Shown: positions 1 through 41,000 of the stretch, one piece after another | Numbering within the stretch: the first letter of the stretch is position 1 | Layout: each line of letters starts with the position of its first letter | DNA from: Malacoraja senta | Lineage: Eukaryota | Direction of reading: 5' to 3' | DNA length: 64,000 nt | Assembly (NCBI GenBank): GCA_038087875.1 | Contig: CM075987.1 | Span: 18,912,001-18,976,000, forward strand | Position numbers and translations under genes: made by a program | The notes under the pieces: model-generated | The model's input: the letters and a program-made list of their open reading frames with translations, nothing else | Databases searched by the model: none | What the model was told of the DNA's origin: nothing

Positions 1-1478
1 AGCTTCTTTATTTTTAATTCATTTTTTCCTCACTGTCCCAGTTTTTCTAAACATCATGCTAGTGGGTTTGCTCATTAATCTTGCAGATGACCTACTAAAA
101 AATTCAGAACAGGAGGCTTTTCTAAAAGCAAAAATAAGCACTAGGTCTCACCAGGGCACTCTACCTTAAAATTGGTATAGCTACAATGGTTAAAATATGT
201 ATTGACTTTCATTCAGGCTTTTTTTTTTTTTTTAAGTATCATTATTTTATCATTGAAAAAATACATTTTCCAAAAATATACTATTTTCACTGACTGAGCA
301 AGGAATCTGATGAAAAACAGAAAATAAATTGGAGAACATTTCTGGCTGGTGTTGCCACAAAGCAAGCACTGCATTTGGTGTGATTAAAATACATCAAAAC
401 TATTCCTCACTATCCAATTAATATGATCGATTTAACAAGGGGTTAAGAATGATTCTTTCAATACTTTTAATACTTGGACATTGAGGCAAAGTTCTTTAAA
501 GTTAGAAGATATGGCCAAATTGTTATGCCACACAACTGAACTGATCACAAAAATCAAATTAGAGTGTTCAATTCTTATCCAATTCTGAAACTTATGCAGG
601 CGAGTACACATTCAACAAGGAGACTAGGGTGTGAACTGAAGTACAATTTTAACAATCTAAATGACAGCAAGTTAGCACATTGTTTGCACACACCCTGATG
701 CCTATGCTGAGCTAAACCAACACAATTATTCAATAAATGAGATAACTTTATTCAGTTTGGTAAACTTAAATATCATCTCAAATTAGAAATGGAGGCGTAG
801 GATCAGAGGATATTTCAATTAATTAGTTTGGTAGAAGATGTTAGGAGGTCCTCCTCGAGACTGATAAACTAGTTAAATTATTGGTCCAGCAACGTACACT
901 GGGGACAGTTAGTGTGTCTTTGCAAATACTACAAGGGTAGTTAAAGCTGCAGAAGCATCAGATCAAGAATACGACCTCATGCTCCAATCATAAAGTAGAT
1001 CAATAAATTCCAAATTCTCTCCGCAGCTTTCAATTCTGTTAAACTTAAAGGGAAAATTAAAAGAGTAGATGGAAGAAAAAGAGGGAAAACTTAAAGAAAA
1101 CTTAAAAAGACAGGTTCATATCATGCAACACATCCCAACTCCTCATCCAATGATGAATGGCACATTTGCCAATTTAAAAAAATCATACCAGAATCAGCAA
1201 TCAGAAATGAGCAGCGAAGGGATGATGTGTGGGCATGATTGTAAATTCCTCCAAAAAGGCACACAAACAACTTAAGTACTTATCATGCTGCCTAAAAGTG
1301 ATTGAGTTCTCAAAGATACTCACAATTAAGTCACGCCTTAGACCTAAACATCATTGTCCAGACTGATATTCATAACAAATGGTGGTGTGATCTGGAGATA
1401 ACAAATATCCTCACCAGAACAGCTACCTGTACAAAACAGATGAGCCATTCATTATCCAGGAATTACTTGAAAATTGTT

Positions 1479-2026
1479 TTAAACACAAGGACGGGTATAT
1501 TTGGTTTTCCACCTTTTGGACCTCATTTGGAAATAGAAGTACATGATCATGAGGAAAAAACTGGAAGCTCCATACAACAGGATACAAAGGCTCATGTCCA
1601 TCCTGGAAAAGCCTACTCCAAGAAATGAAATATGTTTCCCTTCTTTTCTATAGCTGTCTAGCTCCTGTCTTTCCATGTTTTGGTCCAGCAGATCAGTCCT
1701 TTCTCGCTTCACCAAGGCACCATTTCTTGAGTTTTGGTCTATGTTCTGGGCATCGATTTTCAGCTCCTTTTGGCTATGCATCAACTGGGGTGGACCTTGC
1801 TCTTTACCTTTCTTTCCATTATCTTTGACAACTGCCTTGTGGATTTGAGACTCATATCCACTATATTTATATGAAATATTGTCCACACTGTAATGTGATT
1901 TCAAAAATCTCAGAACCTCCTCCTCCTTCCAGGTATCGAGACCTTTGATTTCTTCATGACATACAGGACAGCCATCAGCAGTTGGCCATGCCACTTTAGG
2001 GAACATTGGATCCTCACTTGGAGCAC
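1479..2026 (-). CDS. QSOX2: QSOX2 exon 12 (terminal coding exon, TM anchor)
   Basis: CTTTAG|(G)[25 protein letters not shown]...[42 protein letters not shown]. Confidence 0.95.
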
Positions 2027-5000
2027 CTAAAGCAGCAAAAACCAAGTTAGATAACACTGGAAGATTAACACAGATTGTTATGGAAGTAAACAAGAGTAAA
2101 TTAAAGATTTAAAATTTAAGAGTAAGTTTAAGATCAACCTCAAATTACTGGGTGCTAACACATAAGGTGCCCTGTTTTTGGTCCCAGCAAACAGATGTAA
2201 TCACAAAGGCAGCGCACTGATCAAAATGTTACCTATCCATTTTCTCCAGTAATGCTGCCTGATCCACTCAGTTACTTCAGTACTTTTTTTTTTTTTGTGT
2301 GGGTCAATGCAAATTACCAGGGTGCTGTCTGGATTAAGAGGACATTAGCTAAAAAGAGATAGAACAAACTTGGATTATTTTCTCTGGAGTGGAGGCCAAG
2401 AGGTGACCTGATAGCAATAAACATAGAAACATAGAAAATAGGTGCAGGAGTACGCCATTCGGCCCTCCGATATGATCATGGCTGATCATCCAACTCAGTA
2501 TCCTGTACCTGCCTTCTCTCCATACCCCCTGATCCCTTTAGCCCCAAGGGCCACATCTAACTCCCTCTTAAATATAGCCAATGAACTGGCCTCAACTACC
2601 TTCTGTGGCAGAGAGTTCCAGAGATTCACCACTCTTCTGTGTGAAAAATGTTCTTCTCATCTCGGTCCTAAAGGATTTCCCCTTAATCCTTAAACTGTGC
2701 CCCCTTGTCCTGGACTTCCCCAACATCGGGAACAATCTTCCTGCATCTAGCCTGTCCAACCCCTTAAGAATTTTGTAAGTTTCTATAAGATCCCCCTCAA
2801 TCTTCTAAATTCTAGCGAGTACAAGCCGAGTCTATCCAGTCTTTCTTCATATAAAAGTCCTGACATCCCAGGAATCAATCTGGTGAACCTTCTCTGTACT
2901 CCCTCTATGGCAAGAATGTCTTTCCTCAGATTTGGAGACCAAAACTGTACGCAATACTCCAGGTGTGGTCTCATCAAGACCCTGTACAACTGCAGTAGAA
3001 CCTCCCTGCTCCTATACTCAAATCCTTTTGATATGAATGCTAACATACCATTCGCTTTCTTCACTGCCTGCTGCACCTGCATGCCTACTATCAATGACTG
3101 GTGTACCATGACACCCAGGTCTCGTTGCATCTCCCCTTTTCCTAATCGGCCACCATTTAGATAATAGTCTACTTTCCTGTTTTTGCCACCAAAGTGGATA
3201 ACCTCACATTTATCCACATTATACTGCATCTGCCATGCATTTGCCCACTCACCCAGCCTATCCAAGTCACCTTGCAGCCTCCTAGCATCCTCCTCACAGC
3301 TAACACTGCCCCCCAGCTTCGTGTCATCCGCAAACTTGGAGATGTTGCATTCAATTCCCTCATCCAAATCATTAATATATATTGTAAATAGCTGGGGCCC
3401 CAGCACTGAGCCTTGCGGTACCCCACTAGTCACTGCCTGCCATTCTGAAAAGGACCCGTTTACTCCTACTCTTTGCTTCCTGTTTGCCAGCCAGTTCTCT
3501 ATCCACATCAATACTGAACCCCCAATACCGTGTGCTTTAAGTTTGTATACTAACCTCTTACGTGGGACCTTGTCGAAAGCCTTCTGAAAGTCCAGATATA
3601 ACACATCCACTGGTTCTCCCTTATCCACTCTACTAGTTACATCCTCGAAAAATTCTATAAGATTCGTCAGACATGATTTACCTTTCGTAAATCCATGCTG
3701 ACTTTGTCCAATGATTTCACCACTTTCCAAATGTGCTGCTATCCCATCTTTAATAACTGACTCTAGCAGTTTCCCCACTACCGATGTTAGACTAACTGGT
3801 CTGTAATTCCCCGTTTTCTCTCTCCCTCCCTTTTTAAAAAGGGGGATTACATTAGCTACCCTCCAACCCTCAGGAACTACTCCAGAATCTAAGGAGTTTT
3901 GAAAAATTATCACTAATGCATCCACTATTTCTGGGGCTACTTCCTTAAGTACTCTGGGATGCAGCCTATCTGGCCCTGGGGATTTATTGGCCTTTAATCC
4001 ATTCAATTTACCTAACACCACTTCCCGGCTAACCTGGATTTCACTCAGTTCCTCCATCTCATTTGACCCGCGGTCTCCTGCTATTTCCGGCAGATTATTT
4101 ATGTCTTCCTTAGTGAAGCAAGAACCAAAGTAGTTATTCAATTGGTCTGCCATGTCCTTGTTCCCCATGATCAATTCACCTGTTTCTGACTGCAAGGGAC
4201 CTACATTTGTTTTAACTAATCTCTTTTTCTTCACATATCTATAAAAACGTTTGCAGTCAGTTTTTATGTTCCCTGCTAGTTTTCTTTCATAATCTATTTT
4301 CCCTTTCCTAATTAAGTACATAAAATAATGAGAGACATAGATAAGGTAGACAGTCAGAATCATTTTCCCAGAGTGGAAATGCCAAGTACTTGAGGACATT
4401 GCTTTATAGTGAAAGTTTAAAGGAGAAGTGCAGGGGCAATTCTTTTTATATACACAGAGAGTGGTGAGTACCTGGAAGGTACTGCTGGGGTCGTGGTGGA
4501 GGCGGATACGATAGTGGCCTTCCATCATGCACAGAATAGAGATACATGGGTCTTATGCAAGCAACAATTATTAGGTTAACTTCGCATCATATCCGGCACA
4601 GACATCATGGGCCAAAGGACCCGTTTCTGTGCCATACCGTTCTGTTCTGAGATTATTCTATATTAATTTAACGTTTATGCCGGATTCAAGGCATATTTTA
4701 TGTCATTATATTCTATATGCAGCTGGGCAGTGAGAATTCTTCTGCCAGTAGAATTCACCCCAAAAAATAGTAAATGTACAACCTATGAAGGTGTAAATTA
4801 ATTTTCATTTGGAGAAAACTGAAGCCCTCTCTTGTATTGCAAAATAACAGCAGTGTTGAGAATAATTAACGAGGGGAACTGTCCAGTACATATTATTAAA
4901 AGCATTTAATGCCCAGGCTATATCATGACAATGTCATATTTTCCACGTTTCCAGATAAGGAAAACTTGAATCAATCTAATTTCTGTGCAAAACTGTGATC

Positions 5001-32000: not shown

Positions 32001-35000
32001 CTTCAATAATTGTCTCATTACTACCATACCGTAATAATCTTCTCCTGTTGCGAACTGACCCACGAGTGCTTTGAAGTACTGCAAGGGAACAACAAAAGAA
32101 AAATGAGTGATAATAACAACAGATTTCTTACTGAAAACACACAAGAGTCTGTGGATTAAAAATATATATATTTCACATTTACCCAATAAGTACATTCAAT
32201 TGTGAAAATTAGTAAGAAACTTGGCAAGGCACATTTGTTCCAAAAATTCACCTTCAGGGTTAATCTCACCCAAAATTGTGATTAGCAACAACATTTTCCT
32301 AGTAGCCATGTCCTTTCACTGGCAATAGTTAATTTCCAACCACATTAAGCAATTCTGCAGAATTGTGGTGGCGCTGTCAAGAAAATCAAAATAGAAATGT
32401 ATTTTAATCCCCATGAGAAAATGCAATGTGATATAGTCCTCAAATTATATGTTCCAAAGGTACATGCAAATTCTTGAAAGTTGAAGAAAATTGTTAGTAT
32501 AGCTATTCCAGATAGAATTTCTTTGAAATGCCCATATAATCAGCCCATATAGTGTCAGTCAGAGAGCAAATTAAAAAAAAAACAGCACCTATTGCTCACA
32601 ACTCAGGAGGTTTTCATTTCTGAACTCAAACCTACATATTTAAAAGGAATATTTATAATATGTAAGATACAGTGCCCTCCATAATGTTTGGGACAAGGAC
32701 CCGTCATTTATTTATTTGCCTCTGTACTCAACATTTTGAGATTTGTAATAGAAAAAAAAAATCACATGTGGTTAAGGTGCACATTGTCAGATTTTAATGA
32801 AGGCCATTTTTATACATTTTGGTTTCACCATGTAGAAATTACAGCAGTGTTTATACATAGTCCCCCCCATTCCGGAATGTATTGTAAATGAAAGTAGTCA
32901 GTGTGATGTATGTAATATAATTAGCATATGTTATGTCTTGTGCGAGAGGACGCATGCGCTGGGGGAGACTCAAGGTGGCGACCTAGAATAAAGAAGCTTG
33001 TCAGTTTACTCCTGTATCTGAGAGTTCTTTTGGGCCAGTTCCAAGCACCCAAATACACTACAATTGGCGACGAGGATGGGATGGAGTTCGTGAGCTCACC
33101 CGCAGGACTGTTTTGCAACAAGCAGGATTGTTTGGCCGTTTAAACAGTAGATACAGAGTTGTGTCGCAGTTGTTTGCGAGCTGGACATGAGAGGCCTGCA
33201 GATCCCTCTATGCCGGGGACTGTAATTTAAAACATCAGCTGTACAAGTCGGCGAGTTTTGTAAGGCTATCTTTATGTTGTGTCTACGTGGCAAGACGTTG
33301 TCCTTCGGATTGTTACACATTTAAGGCTGAGGTTTTTTTTGTCGAATTCCTCAAGCTGAATAATCTTTGTACAGCTAAGTTTTAGGTGAATTGTTACACC
33401 AGAACACGCAACAAGGATAACGAGGCAACGAGGATAAAAGAACAGAAAAGAACAAAGAAGGACTTTCAAGAAAAAAAAAACCAAGTTAAAAAGAAGAGGT
33501 TGTGTTTGGAAACAAAGTGGAACGGCACCAAGCCAAAGGAAAGAAAGGTCAGAACAGGAAGCAAGGAAAACAAGTGGGGCAGTAAGTAAGTGTCACCGAA
33601 GAACGCAGCCGAAAGCTGGAAGCCTAACCAGCAGGACAGCGACAGTGTCAACTTACCTGGAATGTTTTCCAGGGCCGTGCAGCCACGGGAAAGGGGCAGA
33701 AGAGGCCCAGCAGCCGCCACCGACTTCGGGTGAGTTCCAGGGCCGTGTACCGTGTAGGCCACGGACAGGTCCAGTGACCGCCACCGACTTTGGACGTTTT
33801 CCAGGGCTGTGCAGCCCACAGCCAGGCCCAGGAGCCGCCACCGACGTCGAGTGAGGGCCTAGTACCGGGTAGGCCACGGACAGGTCCAGTGAAGCCACAG
33901 ACGAAACGGAGTCAGCCCGGCCGGGAGAAGAGTCAGCCCGGTCGAGGGAGAAAACTGGCCGCGTGAGAAGCGGACAGGTAGAGTAAAAAAAAAAAACGGC
34001 TGCGAGAGAAGCGGACCGGTCGTGAGAGAAAGCCCGGTCGCAAGAGACGGCCAAGAGGAGAGAAAGCCCGGTCGGGAGTAGTCAGCCCGACCGTGAGCAG
34101 AAAAGCGGAGAGGCCCGCGAGAGAAGCGGAGAGCCGTGAAAGCCCGGTCGCAAGGGACGGCCGAGAGCGGAGAAAGCCCGGACGTGAGAGGAAGTCCGGC
34201 CCCGATAGAAGAGTGGGTCAGCGCGAGAGAAGCGGGACACAGCAGTCAAGCACTTCAGCCGGTCGGGAGCAGAGTCAGCCCGGTCGGGGGAGAAAGTGGA
34301 GAAAGCCCGGTCGCGGGAGACGGCCGAAAGCAGAGAAAGCCCGGTCGCGGGAGACAGCCGAGAGTGGAGAAAGCCTACCACGAGAGAGGCACAGTCCCGT
34401 CGCTTGGAGCAGCGGGGACCAGCAGCAGTAACTAGCAGCGACTCACCATCCGCAGGGTGTCCAAGGGAGACAGCGACGAGCCGAGCAGCGGGTCCAGTAT
34501 CAGCCAGGAGGGCTGTGGAGCCAGCGGGCAGGCAAGTCAGCGGAGCAGCAGGAGTCGACTTGGCAACAAGCCAGCGGCAGCAAAAGTGACGGTGAAGCCC
34601 AGGGGAGCCAGCAAAAGCAGCACAAGTGGAGGTCCGGTGAGGCCATCAGCAAAGGTACCAGTGGGAACAGCTCGAGAGGTCGAGGATGCACCAGAGTCCA
34701 CAGGCCACAAGCTGGAGCTGTGAAATCCTTCATAATAAAAGCCCTCTGTGAATGAAATGCATGGGCACAGTAAAAGCAGGACTGTTTAAATGTAATGCAT
34801 TGGTCACTGTTATTAATAGTAAATCTGTGTGCATAGAAGGAATATGGTTTAAAATGTTCTAAATGGCTATTAACATGAAATGTTGGTTAATAGTATAAAT
34901 CTATTATTATAAGAATTAGTAATAGTCAGTGGGCTGGATCACTTCTTAGTGTGTAAAATGATTAAGTCTAGTGCAGAAAACACAGTGAGAGAACAGAATA

Positions 35001-38000
35001 TAGTGCACCTGAATAGCAACATGTAGCATGGCTTTCCAAATTGTAGGAAACGTGCCCCAGTTAGATTCTGGGTGTAATTTTGAGAAATGGACCAAAGTCT
35101 TGGAGGCTTGTTTCATTTCCAATGATATCGCTGCAGAGGAGAAGAGAGCATGGTTCATATTAGGCTTAGGAAGAGAGGGTTATCAGACCTCACGTATGTT
35201 ACTGCAGCCAGCAAAGCCCACAGATAAAATGTACAAGGAGTGTAAGGAGGCATTAATGGCTCATTTCTCGCCAAAACCTCCAAGGGCATCCAGAGGCAAG
35301 GAGCCTGAACTAAAGAGGGCAGAGAGTCCCTCAAAGGACAAAAGTCAAGTGCAAAAGGACAATGGTCAAGTGCAAAAGGACCAAGGTCAAGTGCAAAAGG
35401 ACCAAGGTCAAGTGCAAAAGGACCAATGTCAAGTGCAAAAGGACCAAGGTCAAGTGCAAAAGGACAAAGGTCAAGTGCAAAGCGACAAAGGTCTAGTGCA
35501 AAGGGACAAAGGGCAAATGCAAAGTGACAGAAGTCAAAGGCAAAGGGAAATTGCCATCCAAAGGGCAACCCTAGCTATTCAAGCTGCATTCAGGGGTATG
35601 AAGGTACGGAGAGAGGTCCGGAACAAGCAGAAGGCAGCAACGGTAATACAAGCAGCATTTAGAAGGCACAGAGTATACCGTCAATACAAGGCAATGAAAT
35701 TAGCAGCTATAATAGTACAAACCCATTATAGGGCACACCTTCAAATGGAAAGTGATCGCAAGACTTACATGAAGGTACGCAGAAGCGTTGTACTGCTTCA
35801 GGCTGCCTACCGAGGAATGGTTGTTCGAAAGCAATTGCGGTGCATGCACAAATCTGCCAAGGTCATACAGACTTATTATCAGATGCATAAACAGCGTCAG
35901 TATTTCAAGAAACTACGCTGGTCTGCCATTGCGGTACAGCAACGATACAGAGCTTGCCAGATAAGAGATGTCCAAGTGAGACATTATAATAGTTTGAGAA
36001 AAGCAGTGGTTTGTATTCAGGCTTTCTACCGTGGGATCAAAGCCAGAGAATTGGTTGAGAAAATCAAGGCAGCACGCCATATTACGTCATTCATAAGGAT
36101 GTGTATTACAAGAAAGCACTTCTTGATGCAAAAGGCGGCTGTAGTCACTCTGCAAGCTGCATACCGTGGTTACTGATTAAGGGTATGGTACAGAGCTATG
36201 CGACAAGCAGTCATTTCGATCCAGAGATGGTACAAAGCATGCAAAATAGGGCATTCCCAGTTTGTGCAATATCAGTCAATGAGGTATGCAACTATTACCA
36301 TTCAGGCTGCCTACAAGAGTATGGTGGTTAGGCAGTGGGTTAAGCAAAAGAGGGCTACTGTAAAAGTGCATTCAGTACTCCATATGAGTTGGTATAGGAA
36401 AGACCTAAGGAGACAAATAGATGCACAACAGAAAAGGCTTAAATGATACAAAAGGCTTAAACGATATAGGAAAGACTTCCTCAAACTGATTTATACAGCA
36501 GTTGTAGTGCAGTCTCACTACCTTGCTTATGTAGTAAGAACAATATACAGAGCGCAAATCAAAGCCACTGTTGTATTGCAAAGACAATATAGATCCTACT
36601 TCTTGACGAATAACCAGAAAAGTGATTTAAGAAGACAAATAGATGAAAAACTGAAAAGGCTTAAACGATACCAAGAATGGTTAAATAAATGTGTGACGAT
36701 GAGCAAAAAGCTGTTAATAGAAAAGTCTAAAGAAGAGAGGCTTGTCGGTCGAGACAAAAGTATGCAGGACCGATTGCGATTAGGACACTTCACTATAGTC
36801 CAGCATGGAGCTTCCTTCACTGAGCAATGGACAAATGGTTATGCATTACAGAATGTCATTATTCAACAAGAGCAGATAAATATGCAGCGCCAGGAAATTG
36901 AGCGACAGAGGAAGCTGCTGAAAAACAAAAACCTGCAGTCATGTGCCAGATCCCACCTACAAATAAGGAACAGAAACAGAGGAAATGTTAACTGTAGCAG
37001 AATATCAAGAACACGAAGAAATCTGCAAATTAGATTAGGATATTTAAAAAGGGAAGAGGCAGAGATACAGGTAGACCTAGTGATTAGAAAGAGTGTGCAA
37101 TTTACACAGAAGGGAACGGAAAAGGATAACACATAAAGCAAGGTGTAATGTATTTGATTTAAGGAAGATGAGTGGAATGAACCATTATAAGTGCTAAGTT
37201 TAGATACGATTATTACAGTTATGAGGATGTAATGTAAGATGACTGTAATAATATAATTTTGCAACAGTGTTAAGCAATTATATTTAATGTAATAGAAATG
37301 GTGTTATTCGCCTCCAAGTTAAAGGGGGAGCAGTGTAATGTATATAATGTAAATGGTGTTACCTGCCTCCAAGTTAAACGGGGAGCAGTGTGATGTATGT
37401 AATATAATTAGCATATGTTATGTCTTGTGCGAGGGAACACATGCGCTGGGGGAGACTCAAGGTGGCGTCCTAGAATAAAGAAGCTTGTCAGTTTACTCCT
37501 GTATCTAAGAGTTCTTTTGGGTCAGTTCCAAGCACCCAAATACACTACAGTCAGGCTTAGTATTTTGTTGCATATCATTTGCATGCCATGCAATGACTGC
37601 TTGAAGTCTGCGATTCGTGGACATCACCAGTTGCTGGGTGCTTCTCTGGTGATGTTCTGCCAGGCCTGTATTACAGCCATCTTTAGCTTATGCTTGTTTT
37701 GAGGGCTAGTCCCCTTCAGTTTTCTATTCAGCATATAAATGGCATGCTCAATTGGATTCAGATCAGGTGATTGACTTGGTCACTCAAGAATTCACCATTT
37801 TTTAGCTTTGACAAGCTACTTTGTTGCTTTAGCAGTATGTTTAGGATCATTGTCTTGCTGTAGAATGAACTGCCGGCCAATGAGTTTTGAGACATTTGTT
37901 TGAACTTGAGCAAATAGGATGTGTCTATACACTTCAGAATTCATTATGCTACTACCATCAGCAGTTGTATAATCAATGAAGATGTGAGCCAGTACCTTCA

Positions 38001-41000
38001 GCAGCCATACATGCCCAGGCCATAACACCCCCACCACCGTGTTTCACAGATGAAGCGGTATGCTTTGGATCTTGGGCAGTTCCTTCTCTCCTCCATACTT
38101 TGCTCTTGCCATCACTCTGATATAAGTTAATCTTCGTCTCATCTGTCCACAAGACCTTTTTCCAGAACTGTGATTGCTCTTTTAAGTACTTCTTGGCAAA
38201 CTGTAACCTGGCTATCCTATTTATCCAGCTAACAAGTGGTTTGCATCTTGTAGTGTAGCCTCTGTATTTTTGTTCATGAAGTCTTCTGCGGACAGTGGTC
38301 ATTGACAAATCCACACCTGACTCCTGACGAGTGTTTCTGACCTGCCGGACAGGTGTTTGGGGATTTTTTTTAATTACAGAGAGCATTCTTCTGTCATCAG
38401 CTGTGGAGGTCTTCCTTGGCCTGCCAGTCCCTTTGCGATTAGTCAGCTCACCAGTGCTCTCTTTCTTCTTACTGATGTACCAAACAGTTGATTTTAGTCA
38501 GCGTAAGGTTTGGCTGATGTTTCTAACAGTTTTATTTTTGTTTCTCAGCCTCATAATGGCTTCTTTGACTTTCATTGGCACAACTTTGGTCCTCATGTTG
38601 ATAAACAGCCCCATAGCAGAAGCATCCATGTCGCGGCGCTGGAAACTGGAAGTGTCCTGAGCTAGGCCACCATCATCTACTGTATCTATTGTACCAACTC
38701 CTGCAAAGCTACAACCACCAGCCTACAAAGTTTTAACAAGTGATGGCTCCCACCGATTGTCGCCAGAAGCCTGCGTCCTTTTCAGGATGGATGATGACGG
38801 TGATGTCCATCAATGCCGAGGGCATTTCATCTGCAAAACAACAACTAATTGGAAAGCTCTGCAATGAGAATGCCTGTGATGTCTTATGTCTACAAGAGAC
38901 CCACAGATGCCAGCAACAGCATCGACCTAAGATCCCTGGAATGAAACTAGTTATTGAAAGGCCACATGAGAAATATGGCAGCACTATCTTCAGTAAAAGA
39001 GACCTAATCATCAACCAGACTTCAATGACAGAAAGGGACAACATAGAAATCCTTGCTGTGAACCTGGGGAAACTAATTGTGACCTCTGTTTACAAACCGC
39101 CAGGCTCTTCATTTGCCTTTGAAGAACACCAAACCATCAGTTACCAACACATGAATGTTACCATTGGGGATTTCAACAGCCACAGCACCTCATGGGGCTA
39201 TAAAGAAACCAACGAGGATGGTAATCTTGTAGAGAGTTGGGGAGAAGCACATCATCTTGACCTAATTCATGATGTTAAACTTCCTCCTTCCTTCAATAGC
39301 TGCCGATGGAAGAAAGGCTATAATCTCGACCTGACCTTTACAAGTGATCGAATAACATGTCAAGGCAAAAAACTAGTCTTCGAGTCAATACCACACTCAC
39401 AACACAGACCAATCATCATTGACATTACTGTTGTGGTACCTCAGAGAGTTCCTCTAGGACGGCGTTTCAACTTTCAAAAAGCTGATTGGGAGCAGTTTGC
39501 CAGCAATCTGGACGGAGCCCTATCTAATCTCGAGCCAGTCCCAGCAAACTATGATCAGTTCATCAAAACAGTGCAAGACATTTCTAGAAAGTATATTCCA
39601 CGCGGATGTAGTGAGTAGTATATACCTGGAATCTCAGCTGACAGTGCCTCATTTTACGAGAAGTACTCAAAACTGTACGAGGAAGATCCCTTCTCAGAGG
39701 AAACTATGAACACAGGGGCGATGCTCATGTTAACAATATCAGGGTAACAAAGAAAATCCTGGCAAGAACTTACTGAGAGTGTTGATATGACACACAACAG
39801 TAAGAGAGCTTAGTCAACCACCAAGAAGCTAAACAACGACCCCCAGAAGGCAACTGCACTCTAACATTACAGCAGATCAGGTTGCTCACTAGCTGCTTCT
39901 GAATGGCAAACCACCACACAAGAAGCACCACAAAATGAGTCTATGGCCTCAGGGTGATAGAGAGTCAACCTGGTACTTCAACAGCAAGGAACTCCAGAGA
40001 GCAATCAATTCCCTCAAGAACGGCAAGGCAGCTGGCCTTGATGACATTCGCACAGAACAGATCAAACATTTTGGGCAGATTACACAAGAGTTGGTCCTCT
40101 TGCTGCTCAACAATTGTGCAACCCTCTGCCAGCGACCTAAAATATGGCAGAAAGCTCTTGTGATCGCTATCCTTAAGCCAGGGAAAGACCCTAAAGAAGC
40201 AAAAAGCTACTGACCGATCTCCCAACTATGCCATCTCTTCAAGCTCTTTGAGTGCCTCATCTTGAACAGGTTGGGCCCAATCACAGAACAACACCTTATA
40301 CCAGAGATCGTGTACCAGCCAAGTGCTCAATCTAACTCAGCACATTGAGGACGGCTTTGAAAGGAATGAACCAACTGGCGTTGTCTTTGTTGATCTGACA
40401 GCTGACGACGACACTGTGAACCACAGGCTGCACCTCAATAGACTCCATGACATGACAGAGGACTTCCACTTGACCAATCTGATTCAACAGTTACTGGAAA
40501 ACAGTCGCTTCTATGTTGAGCTGAATGATAAACGCAGCAGATGGAGGAAACAAAAGAATGGCCTACCTCAGGGCAGTGTCCTTGCTCCGGTTCTGTTCAA
40601 TGTATACACTAATGATCAGCTAGTGTTCCCAGGGACAAGAAGCTTTGTTTACGCTGACGACCTTGGAATAGCAGCCCAGAGCACTCACATAGATGAGGTA
40701 GAAGCTACCCTCTCATCATCCTTAGACAACTTGACAAACTACTACTAGGACAACCAACTGAAGGCAAACCCTGCTAAGACCCAGGTTAGCCTGTTCCACC
40801 TTCGTAATCACGAAGCTGGGAGGAAGCTGTCCGTAACATGGATTGGTGTCCCTTTGAGACACTGTGAACTACCCTGTCTACCTTGGGGTCACTCTGGACC
40901 GAACCCTCTCCTTCAAGCAACACATCAAATGGGTGAAGGGCAAAGTGAGGACGAGGAACAGCCTCCTCCGCGAGCTGGCAAACTCGTCGTGGGGTAACAA

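What the first reader, a model, noticed from the sequence alone, without database searches (positions are those of the whole stretch)
35028..37136. Three ORFs are one ancestral frame broken only by two TGA codons
ORFs at 35028, 36198 and 36507 share a frame. The only stops are TGA at 36174 (GGT TAC TGA TTA) and 36444, and the adjacent 18-bp tandem copy of the second reads CGA, which suggests CpG decay after insertion. Every Gag/repeat/ASPM/TLK junction is in frame. Chance in-frame joining at four or more junctions is unlikely, so the fusion protein may have been selected in the source element (inference).
Basis: partly seen in the sequence, partly recalled or inferred. Interest (0 to 1): 0.8.

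Follow-up and report, generated by a model that had tools for sequence, protein, structure and literature searches.

The report
Decayed gene-carrying skate retrotransposon copy
This is one worn-out copy of a many-copy jumping gene in a skate-like fish that long ago picked up spliced pieces of two host genes (ASPM and TLK2) and fused them in frame to its own Gag gene; the kind is known, but this family is unusually successful.

Summary
Window 35028-37136 is one frame of 703 codons whose only internal stops are TGA at 36174 and 36444. The other two frames hold 51 and 34 stops.

It is the ORF of a 4.65-kb non-autonomous Ty3/gypsy LTR retrotransposon (32902-37549). The element has 161-bp LTRs, a GTCAG target duplication and no pol.

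The ORF joins a truncated Gag, a 21-bp repeat, 340 codons of ASPM IQ repeats and about 510 nt of TLK2. The TLK2 piece matches five host exons with the introns removed, so a spliced mRNA was captured.

The family has at least 50 scored copies (366 to 3025 first-look candidates). None of the 30 nearest copies is intact.

Both TGAs are decay after insertion. Most copies carry a sense codon there, and the stops arose repeatedly on the copy tree.

It makes this copy skip the family's usual stop.

Selection on the protein sequence is not supported: omega is 0.84 (p = 0.085), and inherited changes show the same S:N ratio as private ones. Continuity of the frame in transposing lineages is moderately supported: 0 inherited stops against 3.0 expected (P = 0.043), and all seven structural changes preserve the frame.

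Verdict: a new member of a known kind, LTR-mediated gene capture.

The parts
32897..32901 (+). 5' target-site duplication GTCAG
   Evidence: The same five letters follow the 3' LTR at 37550-37554. Two other complete copies have their own 5-bp duplications: L031 GAGTA and L035 CTCCT.
32902..33062 (+). 5' LTR, 161 bp, TG...CA ends
   Evidence: Direct repeat with 37389-37549, 96% alike, 6 differences.
33065..33081 (+). Primer-binding-site-like stretch (starts TGG) two bases after the 5' LTR
   Evidence: Read. Kept in L031 and L035. Which tRNA it fits was not tested.
33063..35027 (+). Long leader: a GC-rich part (57% GC) with 17/18/34-bp repeats, then an AT-rich part
   Evidence: None of 7 leader ORFs matches Pfam. 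It holds 19 upstream ATGs, none between 33662 and 34686. The leader is only about 650 nt in the older copy L031.
35028..35290 (+). Gag N-terminal domain (Ty3/gypsy type), start of the ORF
   Evidence: The older copy's Gag part finds 1735 proteins. 9 of 12 proteins scanned carry RT, RNase H and integrase. L031 residues 5-89 are 59% identical to residues 71-155 of a full Gag, P0122. ATG is kept in 30 of 30 aligned copies.
35333..35548 (+). 21-bp tandem repeat, 10.3 copies (heptad KDKGQVQ); it stands where older copies have two CCHC zinc knuckles
   Evidence: L031 and L036 read CWRCGG...C and CFRCSGTGHTKSQC there. Copy number varies by 21 nt among copies.
35529..36620 (+). Captured ASPM piece (IQ repeats), interrupted by the mini-insert
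   Evidence: Seven Pfam IQ stretches. 73% identical to residues 2364-2703 of a skate ASPM, P0272.
36174..36176 (+). First TGA: decay after insertion
   Evidence: A stop in 5 of 35 aligned copies, scattered on the tree. All 10 contigs across it in 4 runs read another letter.
36405..36464 (+). 60-nt in-frame mini-insert inside ASPM: a second copy of the start of the TLK2 piece (42 nt) plus its 18-nt tandem duplication
   Evidence: Absent from L031, L034, L035 and L036, where the flanks abut. 36402-36452 matches host TLK2 exon 14380655-14380705 at 88%. Tandem repeat.
36444..36446 (+). Second TGA, in the first unit of the 18-nt tandem: decay after insertion
   Evidence: A stop in 7 of 32 aligned copies, needing 6 changes on the tree.
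36622..37133 (+). Captured TLK2 piece (coiled-coil region, about residues 195-376), intronless
   Evidence: Aligns in series to five host exons on G000:C10 (14380653-14388572) at 86-92% identity, with introns of about 3.3, 1.7, 1.1 and 1.3 kb absent.
36919..37026 (+). Stretch where the ORF frame is not the TLK2 frame
   Evidence: Relative to older copies the subfamily lacks 1, 31 (or 27) and 1 nt here, net 33. No protein identity to TLK2 in this stretch.
37078..37083 (+). Private 2-bp deletion (after 37078) that puts the family's usual stop (TGA 37081-37083) out of frame
   Evidence: 30 other copies have two more letters. 19 of 35 copies end '...EAEIQVELE*'. Contigs with two letters put in behind 37078.
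37134..37136 (+). TAA that ends the frame in this copy only
37376..37388 (+). Polypurine-tract-like stretch next to the 3' LTR (within a 55-bp tandem, 37290-37407)
37389..37549 (+). 3' LTR
37550..37554 (+). 3' target-site duplication GTCAG

Best explanation
Window 32902-37549 is a dead copy of a high-copy, non-autonomous Ty3/gypsy LTR retrotransposon of a cartilaginous fish (skate-like) genome.

Origin (anatomy shown, mechanism inferred). A Gag-bearing element lost the middle of Gag and all of pol. During reverse transcription, by template switching onto co-packaged host mRNAs, it took up a 340-codon stretch of ASPM IQ repeats and then a spliced five-exon piece of TLK2. Both were fused in frame behind the Gag zinc knuckles.

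Later changes in the lineage leading to this copy (shown):
- The zinc knuckles were replaced by a 21-bp repeat.
- A 42-nt TLK2 snippet was copied into the ASPM part, and 18 nt of it were duplicated.
- Three small deletions shifted and then restored the frame in the TLK2 tail.
- A stop arose about 26 codons before the older end.

Burst and decay (shown). A burst then produced many copies, presumably moved in trans by an autonomous partner that was not identified. After insertion this copy decayed neutrally: two one-letter stop mutations at CpG-type hot spots (36174, 36444), a 2-bp deletion (after 37078) and a 3-bp deletion (after 35139).

What selection acted on (inferred). In the lineages that kept transposing, the frame stayed open while the amino-acid sequence drifted almost freely. 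My best reading, about even odds, is that the frame matters at the RNA or translation level. An early stop would leave a long untranslated tail and expose the genomic RNA to nonsense-mediated decay. On that reading the captured ASPM and TLK2 domains do no biochemical work.
For: Element anatomy: LTRs, TG..CA ends, 5-bp target duplications in 3 of 3 complete copies, and PBS- and PPT-like stretches. No pol: only IQ in the ORF and nothing in 7 leader ORFs.

Gag: Ty3/gypsy type. P0122 residues 156-284 are missing.

ASPM: 73% identity to residues 2364-2703 of a skate ASPM.

TLK2: five host exons joined exactly. Identity to the host is 89-100% per exon in the older copy L031 and 86-92% in the window.

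Many copies: 50 scored DNA matches at 85-100% out of 366 first-look candidates. All 64 loci scored with a TLK2 protein are intronless pieces, out of 3025 candidates.

Burst: 26 copies in a star-like clade with a median end branch of 0.019. LTR divergence of 6/161 fits this.

Decay: 0 of 30 copies are intact. Young copies average 2.38 stops and 0.96 frameshifts each, and none of 24 is clean. The two TGAs are recurrent and in the minority.

Near-neutral protein: omega 0.835, p = 0.085. Inherited S:N is 13:32 against 105:282 for private changes. The state shared by the young copies differs from host TLK2 in the core by S 7: N 14.

Open frame kept:
- 0 stops among 45 inherited changes, against 3.0 expected (P = 0.043).
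- 4 stops among 145 homoplastic changes, against 9.8 expected (my arithmetic at the terminal stop share of 0.067).
- No codon column but the last has a stop in most young copies.
- Seven structural events on the active lineage all preserve the frame.

Precedent for surveillance of retroviral RNA with long 3' UTRs or early stops: PMC2925335 and PMC5580461 (search listing, starts of abstracts only).
Against: - The evidence for a kept frame is modest. The cleanest test gives P = 0.043, from only 36 copies of a family of hundreds or more.
- The finding was picked because it has a long ORF, which biases the in-frame count.
- Some of the seven structural events may have arisen in a single reverse-transcription event.
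- The 1965-nt leader has 19 upstream ATGs with short ORFs. That argues against efficient translation of the ORF from a full-length transcript, and so against any model that depends on translation.
- A stop did become fixed near the end, and the tail changed frame.
- Host ASPM was not found in this assembly and the autonomous partner was not identified. Template switching at the junctions therefore rests on analogy (PMC5131818), not on microhomology seen here.
- No RNA evidence could be obtained.
Confidence: 0.62

Rival explanations
1. The same element and history, but the long open frame is a passive leftover. The captured pieces were coding sequence, the family is young, and frame continuity in the active lineage is luck. 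Nothing ever selected on the ORF.
For: Omega is near 1. Inherited and private changes have the same S:N ratio. Zinc knuckles were lost and the TLK2 tail went out of frame without stopping the burst. There are 19 upstream ATGs. Non-autonomous LTR elements need no protein of their own (established knowledge). The stop test is only P = 0.043.
Against: There are 0 inherited stops against 3.0 expected, and the share of stops among homoplastic changes is also low: 4 of 145 against 28 of 415 on end branches. Three frameshifts in the tail sum to 33 nt with no stop in the shifted stretch. Four further structural changes made after the capture are all multiples of three. ATG is kept in 30 of 30 copies.
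Confidence: 0.28
2. The fusion protein itself is functional and was selected. One version is a chimeric Gag that needs the IQ repeats (calmodulin or light-chain binding) and the TLK2 coiled coil (self-association) to get its own RNA into the helper's particles. Another version is a protein useful to the host.
For: The fusions to Gag are in frame. The TLK2 core has the lowest omega, 0.685, though p = 0.089. NCBI annotates one copy in a skate as a protein-coding 'ASPM homolog' (P0123).
Against: No amino-acid constraint is detectable. There are 14 replacement changes in 99 codons of a TLK2 region that is almost invariant in the host. The nucleic-acid-binding zinc knuckles were lost before the biggest burst. 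The Gag part shows no excess of silent changes. All 30 copies are broken.
Confidence: 0.08
3. It is not a mobile element but a decayed host gene family (ASPM-like paralogues) spread by segmental duplication.
For: One subgroup (the L032 type) is indeed spread by tandem segmental duplication at spacings of about 60-67 kb. It carries a gene-like annotation.
Against: LTRs with different 5-bp target duplications in 3 of 3 complete copies. A Ty3/gypsy Gag. Copies dispersed on many contigs. An intronless TLK2 piece.
Confidence: 0.02

Closest known systems
LTR-mediated retroposition / chimeric retrocopies inside LTR retrotransposons (Tan et al. 2016, PMC5131818; passages read)
   Same: Partial, intronless pieces of host mRNAs replace internal ORFs between two LTRs. 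More than one parental gene can be joined. The pieces lie in sense orientation and are often in frame. The locus can behave as a non-autonomous LTR element and be copied again.
   Different: Those cases are single or few-copy (two Drosophila retrocopies had more than one insertion site). This one has at least 50 scored copies and hundreds to thousands of candidates in several subfamilies. Microsimilarity at the switch points, their hallmark, could not be tested here.
Maize Bs1 (as described in PMC5131818, passages; original papers not seen)
   Same: An LTR element whose ORF joins exon pieces of several host genes. [quoted passage not shown]
   Different: Bs1 is a plant element with one to five copies and is reported to give a functional hybrid protein. 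Here the host is a vertebrate, the copy number is very high and no protein constraint was detected.
Replication-defective transducing retroviruses with Gag-fusion genes (recalled textbook knowledge, no call)
   Same: A truncated Gag is fused in frame to a spliced host cDNA, pol is lost, and the element depends on a helper.
   Different: The backbone here is a Ty3/gypsy retrotransposon, not an orthoretrovirus. There is no env and no sign of infection. It amplified in the germ line, and there is no evidence that the cargo is active.
Gene capture in endogenous retroviruses of crocodilians (PMC4299795; search listing only)
   Same: Host gene pieces sit inside LTR-bounded vertebrate elements.
   Different: The paper was not read beyond its title and the start of its abstract, so no comparison of structure was made.

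Membership tests
LTR retrotransposon, Ty3/gypsy-derived, non-autonomous | Two LTRs in direct orientation with TG...CA ends | tested here: met
   32902-33062 and 37389-37549, 161 bp, 6 differences.
LTR retrotransposon, Ty3/gypsy-derived, non-autonomous | Short target-site duplication, different for each insertion | tested here: met
   GTCAG (window), GAGTA (L031), CTCCT (L035): 3 of 3 complete copies examined.
LTR retrotransposon, Ty3/gypsy-derived, non-autonomous | Primer binding site complementary to a tRNA 3' end, and a polypurine tract | tested here: inconclusive
   A TGG-starting stretch lies 2 nt after the 5' LTR and a purine-rich stretch lies before the 3' LTR. The matching tRNA was not identified, and there is no tRNA gene in the window.
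LTR retrotransposon, Ty3/gypsy-derived, non-autonomous | Gag related to Gag of elements with the order PR-RT-RNase H-IN | tested here: met
   1735 hits. 9 of 12 proteins scanned have RVT_1, RT_RNaseH and rve. 59% identity to P0122 over 85 residues. The window's own 101-residue N-terminus gives no Pfam hit.
LTR retrotransposon, Ty3/gypsy-derived, non-autonomous | No pol of its own (non-autonomous) | tested here: met
   Only IQ in the ORF and no family in 7 leader ORFs. The element is 4.65 kb.
LTR retrotransposon, Ty3/gypsy-derived, non-autonomous | An autonomous partner with matching LTRs or Gag in the same genome | not tested
LTR-mediated retrocopy (captured host mRNA) | Intronless copy of a multi-exon parental gene | tested here: met
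   The TLK2 piece equals five host exons with four introns absent. The ASPM piece could not be compared because host ASPM was not found.
LTR-mediated retrocopy (captured host mRNA) | Microsimilarity at the switch points | not testable with these tools
   This needs host ASPM DNA and the parental element, and neither was in hand. Only the internal mini-insert shows short shared letters at its ends (by eye).
Functional or domesticated gene (ASPM homolog, as annotated for P0123) | Intact ORF under purifying selection at a stable locus | tested here: not met
   0 of 30 copies intact. Omega 0.835, not significant. Dispersed insertions with target duplications.
Transducing retrovirus | Orthoretroviral backbone (retroviral Gag, env, infectious helper) | tested here: not met
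   Gag relatives are Ty3/gypsy polyproteins. No env-like ORF.

The most novel reading that the evidence does not exclude
A retrotransposon family whose spread depends on keeping a 2-kb open frame made mostly of stolen host coding sequence, while the encoded amino acids are free to drift. The captured ASPM and TLK2 exons would serve as a translatable 'spacer' that shields the genomic RNA from nonsense-mediated decay (or otherwise couples translation to packaging). This would be a use of transduced host genes that is neither protein function nor junk.
Probability: 0.3. Interest if true: 0.7.

Novelty: new member of a known kind. Interest (0 to 1): 0.45.

Why it matters
The case shows that LTR-mediated capture of spliced host mRNAs, known from a few low-copy examples in animals, can seed a very successful family in a vertebrate: hundreds or more copies in several subfamilies. 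Such copies get annotated as host genes ('ASPM homolog'), which can mislead gene counts and studies of ASPM or TLK2 in skates.

If the hint that the frame is kept open without constraint on the protein holds up, the family would be a natural experiment. It would show how RNA surveillance or translation shapes which retroelement copies can propagate.

Tried and rejected
1. Host ASPM locus. It was not found in this assembly with three protein queries or with the ASH domain family. I write 'not found with these queries', not 'absent'. A skate ASPM protein from the database (P0272) served as stand-in, so no DNA-level comparison or junction analysis was possible for ASPM.

2. More copies for power. 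I made no further request, so all tests rest on 36 loci.

3. Nei-Gojobori pairwise dN/dS. It gave 0.63-0.70 in the real frame but 0.63-0.83 in the two control frames. The method's bias makes the raw value useless, and I replaced it with a codon model and with inherited-versus-private counts.

4. Branch-length estimate of expected lesions. Using tree branch lengths I reckoned about 12 stops expected on internal branches. I rejected this as over-optimistic, because the strict count finds only 45 cleanly inherited changes.

5. Expression. No RNA holder is listed among 23 runs. The four runs laid are contigs whose RNA label is a guess. Nothing can be said about transcription.

6. Earlier findings of this scan: none by place or by sequence.

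7. tRNA for the primer site: no tRNA gene in the window. A serine tRNA came to mind from memory only and was not tested.

8. Pfam on the window's own Gag N-terminus: no hit. Identity came from the older copy L031 and a library-wide search.

9. Literature. No paper holds ASPM, TLK2 and retrotransposon together. A search on little skate transposable elements listed nothing about this family in titles or starts of abstracts (the papers were not read).
Full report
OBSERVATION

The stretch 35028-37136 reads as one frame of 703 codons. Its only internal stops are TGA at 36174-36176 and 36444-36446. The other two frames of the same stretch hold 51 and 34 stops. The 18-bp tandem (36432-36466) and the 21-bp repeat (35333-35548, 10.3 copies) are real.

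WHAT SURROUNDS IT

The frame lies inside a 4.65-kb element bounded by 161-bp direct repeats, 32902-33062 and 37389-37549. These differ at 6 positions, have TG...CA ends, and are flanked by the same five letters, GTCAG.
- A TGG-starting stretch follows the 5' repeat and a purine run precedes the 3' repeat.
- The 1965-nt leader is GC-rich, repetitive and without Pfam matches.
- The only Pfam family in the ORF is IQ, with 7 stretches.
- The flanks belong to other mobile elements. A Tc1/Tc3-type transposase fragment lies at 37973-38386 on the minus strand and a LINE endonuclease at 38740-39618.

THE PARTS OF THE ORF

(a) Gag. An older copy (L031) has, in place of the 21-bp repeat, two CCHC zinc knuckles.
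- Its first 160 residues find 1735 proteins.
- Of 12 that I scanned, 9 carry reverse transcriptase, RNase H and integrase in the Ty3/gypsy order.
- Against a full Gag (P0122), residues 5-89 match residues 71-155 at 59% identity. The knuckles match residues 285-330, and P0122 156-284 is missing.
- This is therefore a truncated Ty3/gypsy Gag.

(b) ASPM. Residues 168-531 are 73% identical to residues 2364-2703 of a skate ASPM, P0272. The match is continuous apart from a 24-residue insert.

(c) TLK2. Window 36622-37133 aligns in series to five exons of the host TLK2 gene on G000:C10, at 86-92% identity, with the four introns (about 3.3, 1.7, 1.1 and 1.3 kb) absent. The older copy L031 is 89-100% identical per exon. 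A spliced mRNA was captured.

(d) The insert inside ASPM (36405-36464). It is a second copy of the first 42 nt of the TLK2 piece plus an 18-nt tandem duplication. It is absent from four older copies. The second TGA sits in it.

A FAMILY, NOT A SINGLE LOCUS

- The ORF finds 50 scored matches at 85-100% identity among 366 first-look candidates in the same genome.
- A TLK2 protein finds 64 loci, all intronless pieces, among 3025 candidates.
- Two further complete copies have their own 5-bp target duplications, GAGTA and CTCCT.
- On a tree of 35 copies, 26 form a star-like burst with a median end branch of 0.019. Older subfamilies branch below it.
- The window's LTR divergence (6/161) fits insertion during that burst.
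- One copy is annotated by NCBI in a skate as 'abnormal spindle-like microcephaly-associated protein homolog' (P0123).

THE TWO TGAS AND THE OTHER LESIONS

- None of the 30 nearest copies has the whole frame open.
- The 24 young copies carry on average 2.38 stops and 0.96 frameshifts, and none is clean.
- At the first site 5 of 35 aligned copies have a stop. At the second, 7 of 32 do. The rest carry sense codons, mostly one and the same, which begins a CpG.
- On the tree the carriers are scattered: 5 changes for 5 carriers and 6 for 7.
- The 2-bp deletion matters. In 19 of 35 copies the frame ends at a TGA that lies out of frame at 37081-37083 here.
- Between about 36919 and 37026 the subfamily's frame is not TLK2's. 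Relative to older copies it lacks 1, 31 (or 27) and 1 nt, 33 in sum.

WAS THE FUSION SELECTED?

Amino-acid level: no.
- A codon model on 8 representatives gives omega 0.835 (p = 0.085 against 1). The shifted control frames give 0.92 and 0.90.
- By part, omega is 0.86 for Gag, 0.90 for ASPM and 0.69 for the TLK2 core, none significant.
- Changes inherited by clades have S:N 13:32, against 105:282 for private ones (odds ratio 1.09, p = 0.86).
- The state shared by the young copies differs from host TLK2 in the core by 7 silent and 14 replacement changes. This is a region where the host protein hardly differs from a ray's.

Frame level: probably yes.
- Among the 45 cleanly inherited changes none makes a stop, against 3.0 expected from the private changes (28 of 415), P = 0.043.
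- Among 145 homoplastic changes, 4 make a stop, against 9.8 expected (my arithmetic at the terminal stop share).
- No codon column except the last has a stop in most young copies.
- Seven structural events on the active lineage all keep the frame:
  1. the Gag internal deletion;
  2. the Gag-ASPM junction;
  3. the ASPM-TLK2 junction;
  4. the replacement of the zinc knuckles by the repeat;
  5. the 42-nt insert;
  6. the 18-nt duplication;
  7. the three tail deletions, taken together.
- At one in three each, the last four alone give about 0.012. This is my own arithmetic, with the caveat that the finding was chosen for its long ORF.
- ATG is kept in 30 of 30 aligned copies.

Against translation mattering: 19 upstream ATGs in the leader, a stop fixed near the end, and the loss of the zinc knuckles before the largest burst.

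MECHANISM

Shown: the element's anatomy, the spliced origin of the TLK2 piece, the many independent insertions, the decay after insertion, and the lack of protein-level constraint.

Inferred: capture by template switching onto co-packaged mRNAs, as described for LTR-mediated retroposition (PMC5131818, passages); mobilisation in trans by an unidentified Ty3/gypsy partner; and a filter that lets only open-frame copies propagate.

For that filter I favour RNA surveillance. An early stop would leave up to 2 kb of untranslated RNA. Retroviral RNAs with long 3' UTRs or premature stops are known targets of nonsense-mediated decay (PMC2925335, PMC5580461; only the search listing was seen). This would explain an open but unconstrained frame and the tolerance of changes in the last tenth. 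It remains a conjecture.

COMPARISON AND NOVELTY

The kind is known. Tan et al. describe retrocopies, some from two or more genes, inside LTR elements of flies, mosquito, zebrafish, chicken and mammals. Some are re-copied as non-autonomous elements. Maize Bs1 joins three host genes, partly out of frame, in one to five copies. This family differs in scale and in the hint of a kept frame. No paper in the library holds ASPM, TLK2 and retrotransposon together. I file it as a new member of a known kind.

LIMITS

- Only 36 loci could be studied.
- Host ASPM and the autonomous partner were not found.
- No RNA evidence was obtained.

Noticed in passing
G000 loci L032 and L033; matches on C18 (9845404, 9907590, 9975117), C2735 (6919, 68036), C2015 (31014, 91446) and others: One older copy, already interrupted by a LINE (RVT_1 and endonuclease), recurs at spacings of about 60-67 kb on several contigs with the same 303-residue open stretch. 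It seems to ride in a large tandem segmental duplication rather than to have transposed.
   Followed up: partly
window 33662-34686: A stretch of 1024 nt in the GC-rich repetitive leader has no ATG at all, while 13 ATGs crowd the AT-rich 340 nt just upstream of the ORF. I do not know whether this reflects composition, a spliced leader or an internal start of transcription.
   Followed up: no
protein P0123 (NCBI XP_055489032.1): A 290-residue protein annotated 'abnormal spindle-like microcephaly-associated protein homolog isoform X1' in a skate is a copy of this element's Gag-repeat-IQ part. This is a probable mis-annotation of a transposon copy as a host gene.
   Followed up: partly
L034:2-2308 and 3482-4669: Next to a 5'-truncated copy lie a Ty3/gypsy pol (RNase H, integrase) and a 396-residue open frame without a Pfam family, which runs into a withheld run of N. 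It could be a neighbouring or nesting autonomous element. Its relation to this family was not examined.
   Followed up: no
window 32672-32896 and 37555-38386: The element sits among the remains of a Tc1/Tc3-type DNA transposon: a terminal-repeat-like start at 32672 and a transposase fragment at 37973-38386 on the minus strand. A LINE endonuclease ORF follows at 38740-39618. Whether the two flanks are one interrupted Tc1 copy was not checked.
   Followed up: partly
runs X1-X20: Runs labelled with seven different organism codes hold 6-46% of the sampled words of the ORF. Contigs 90-99% alike were laid from three of the codes. The family may therefore be shared by several related species.
   Followed up: partly
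copies L012/L015 and L016/L017: These are near-identical pairs (end branches 0-0.0035) that share their private stops and indels. They are duplicates made after insertion, not separate insertions.
   Followed up: no
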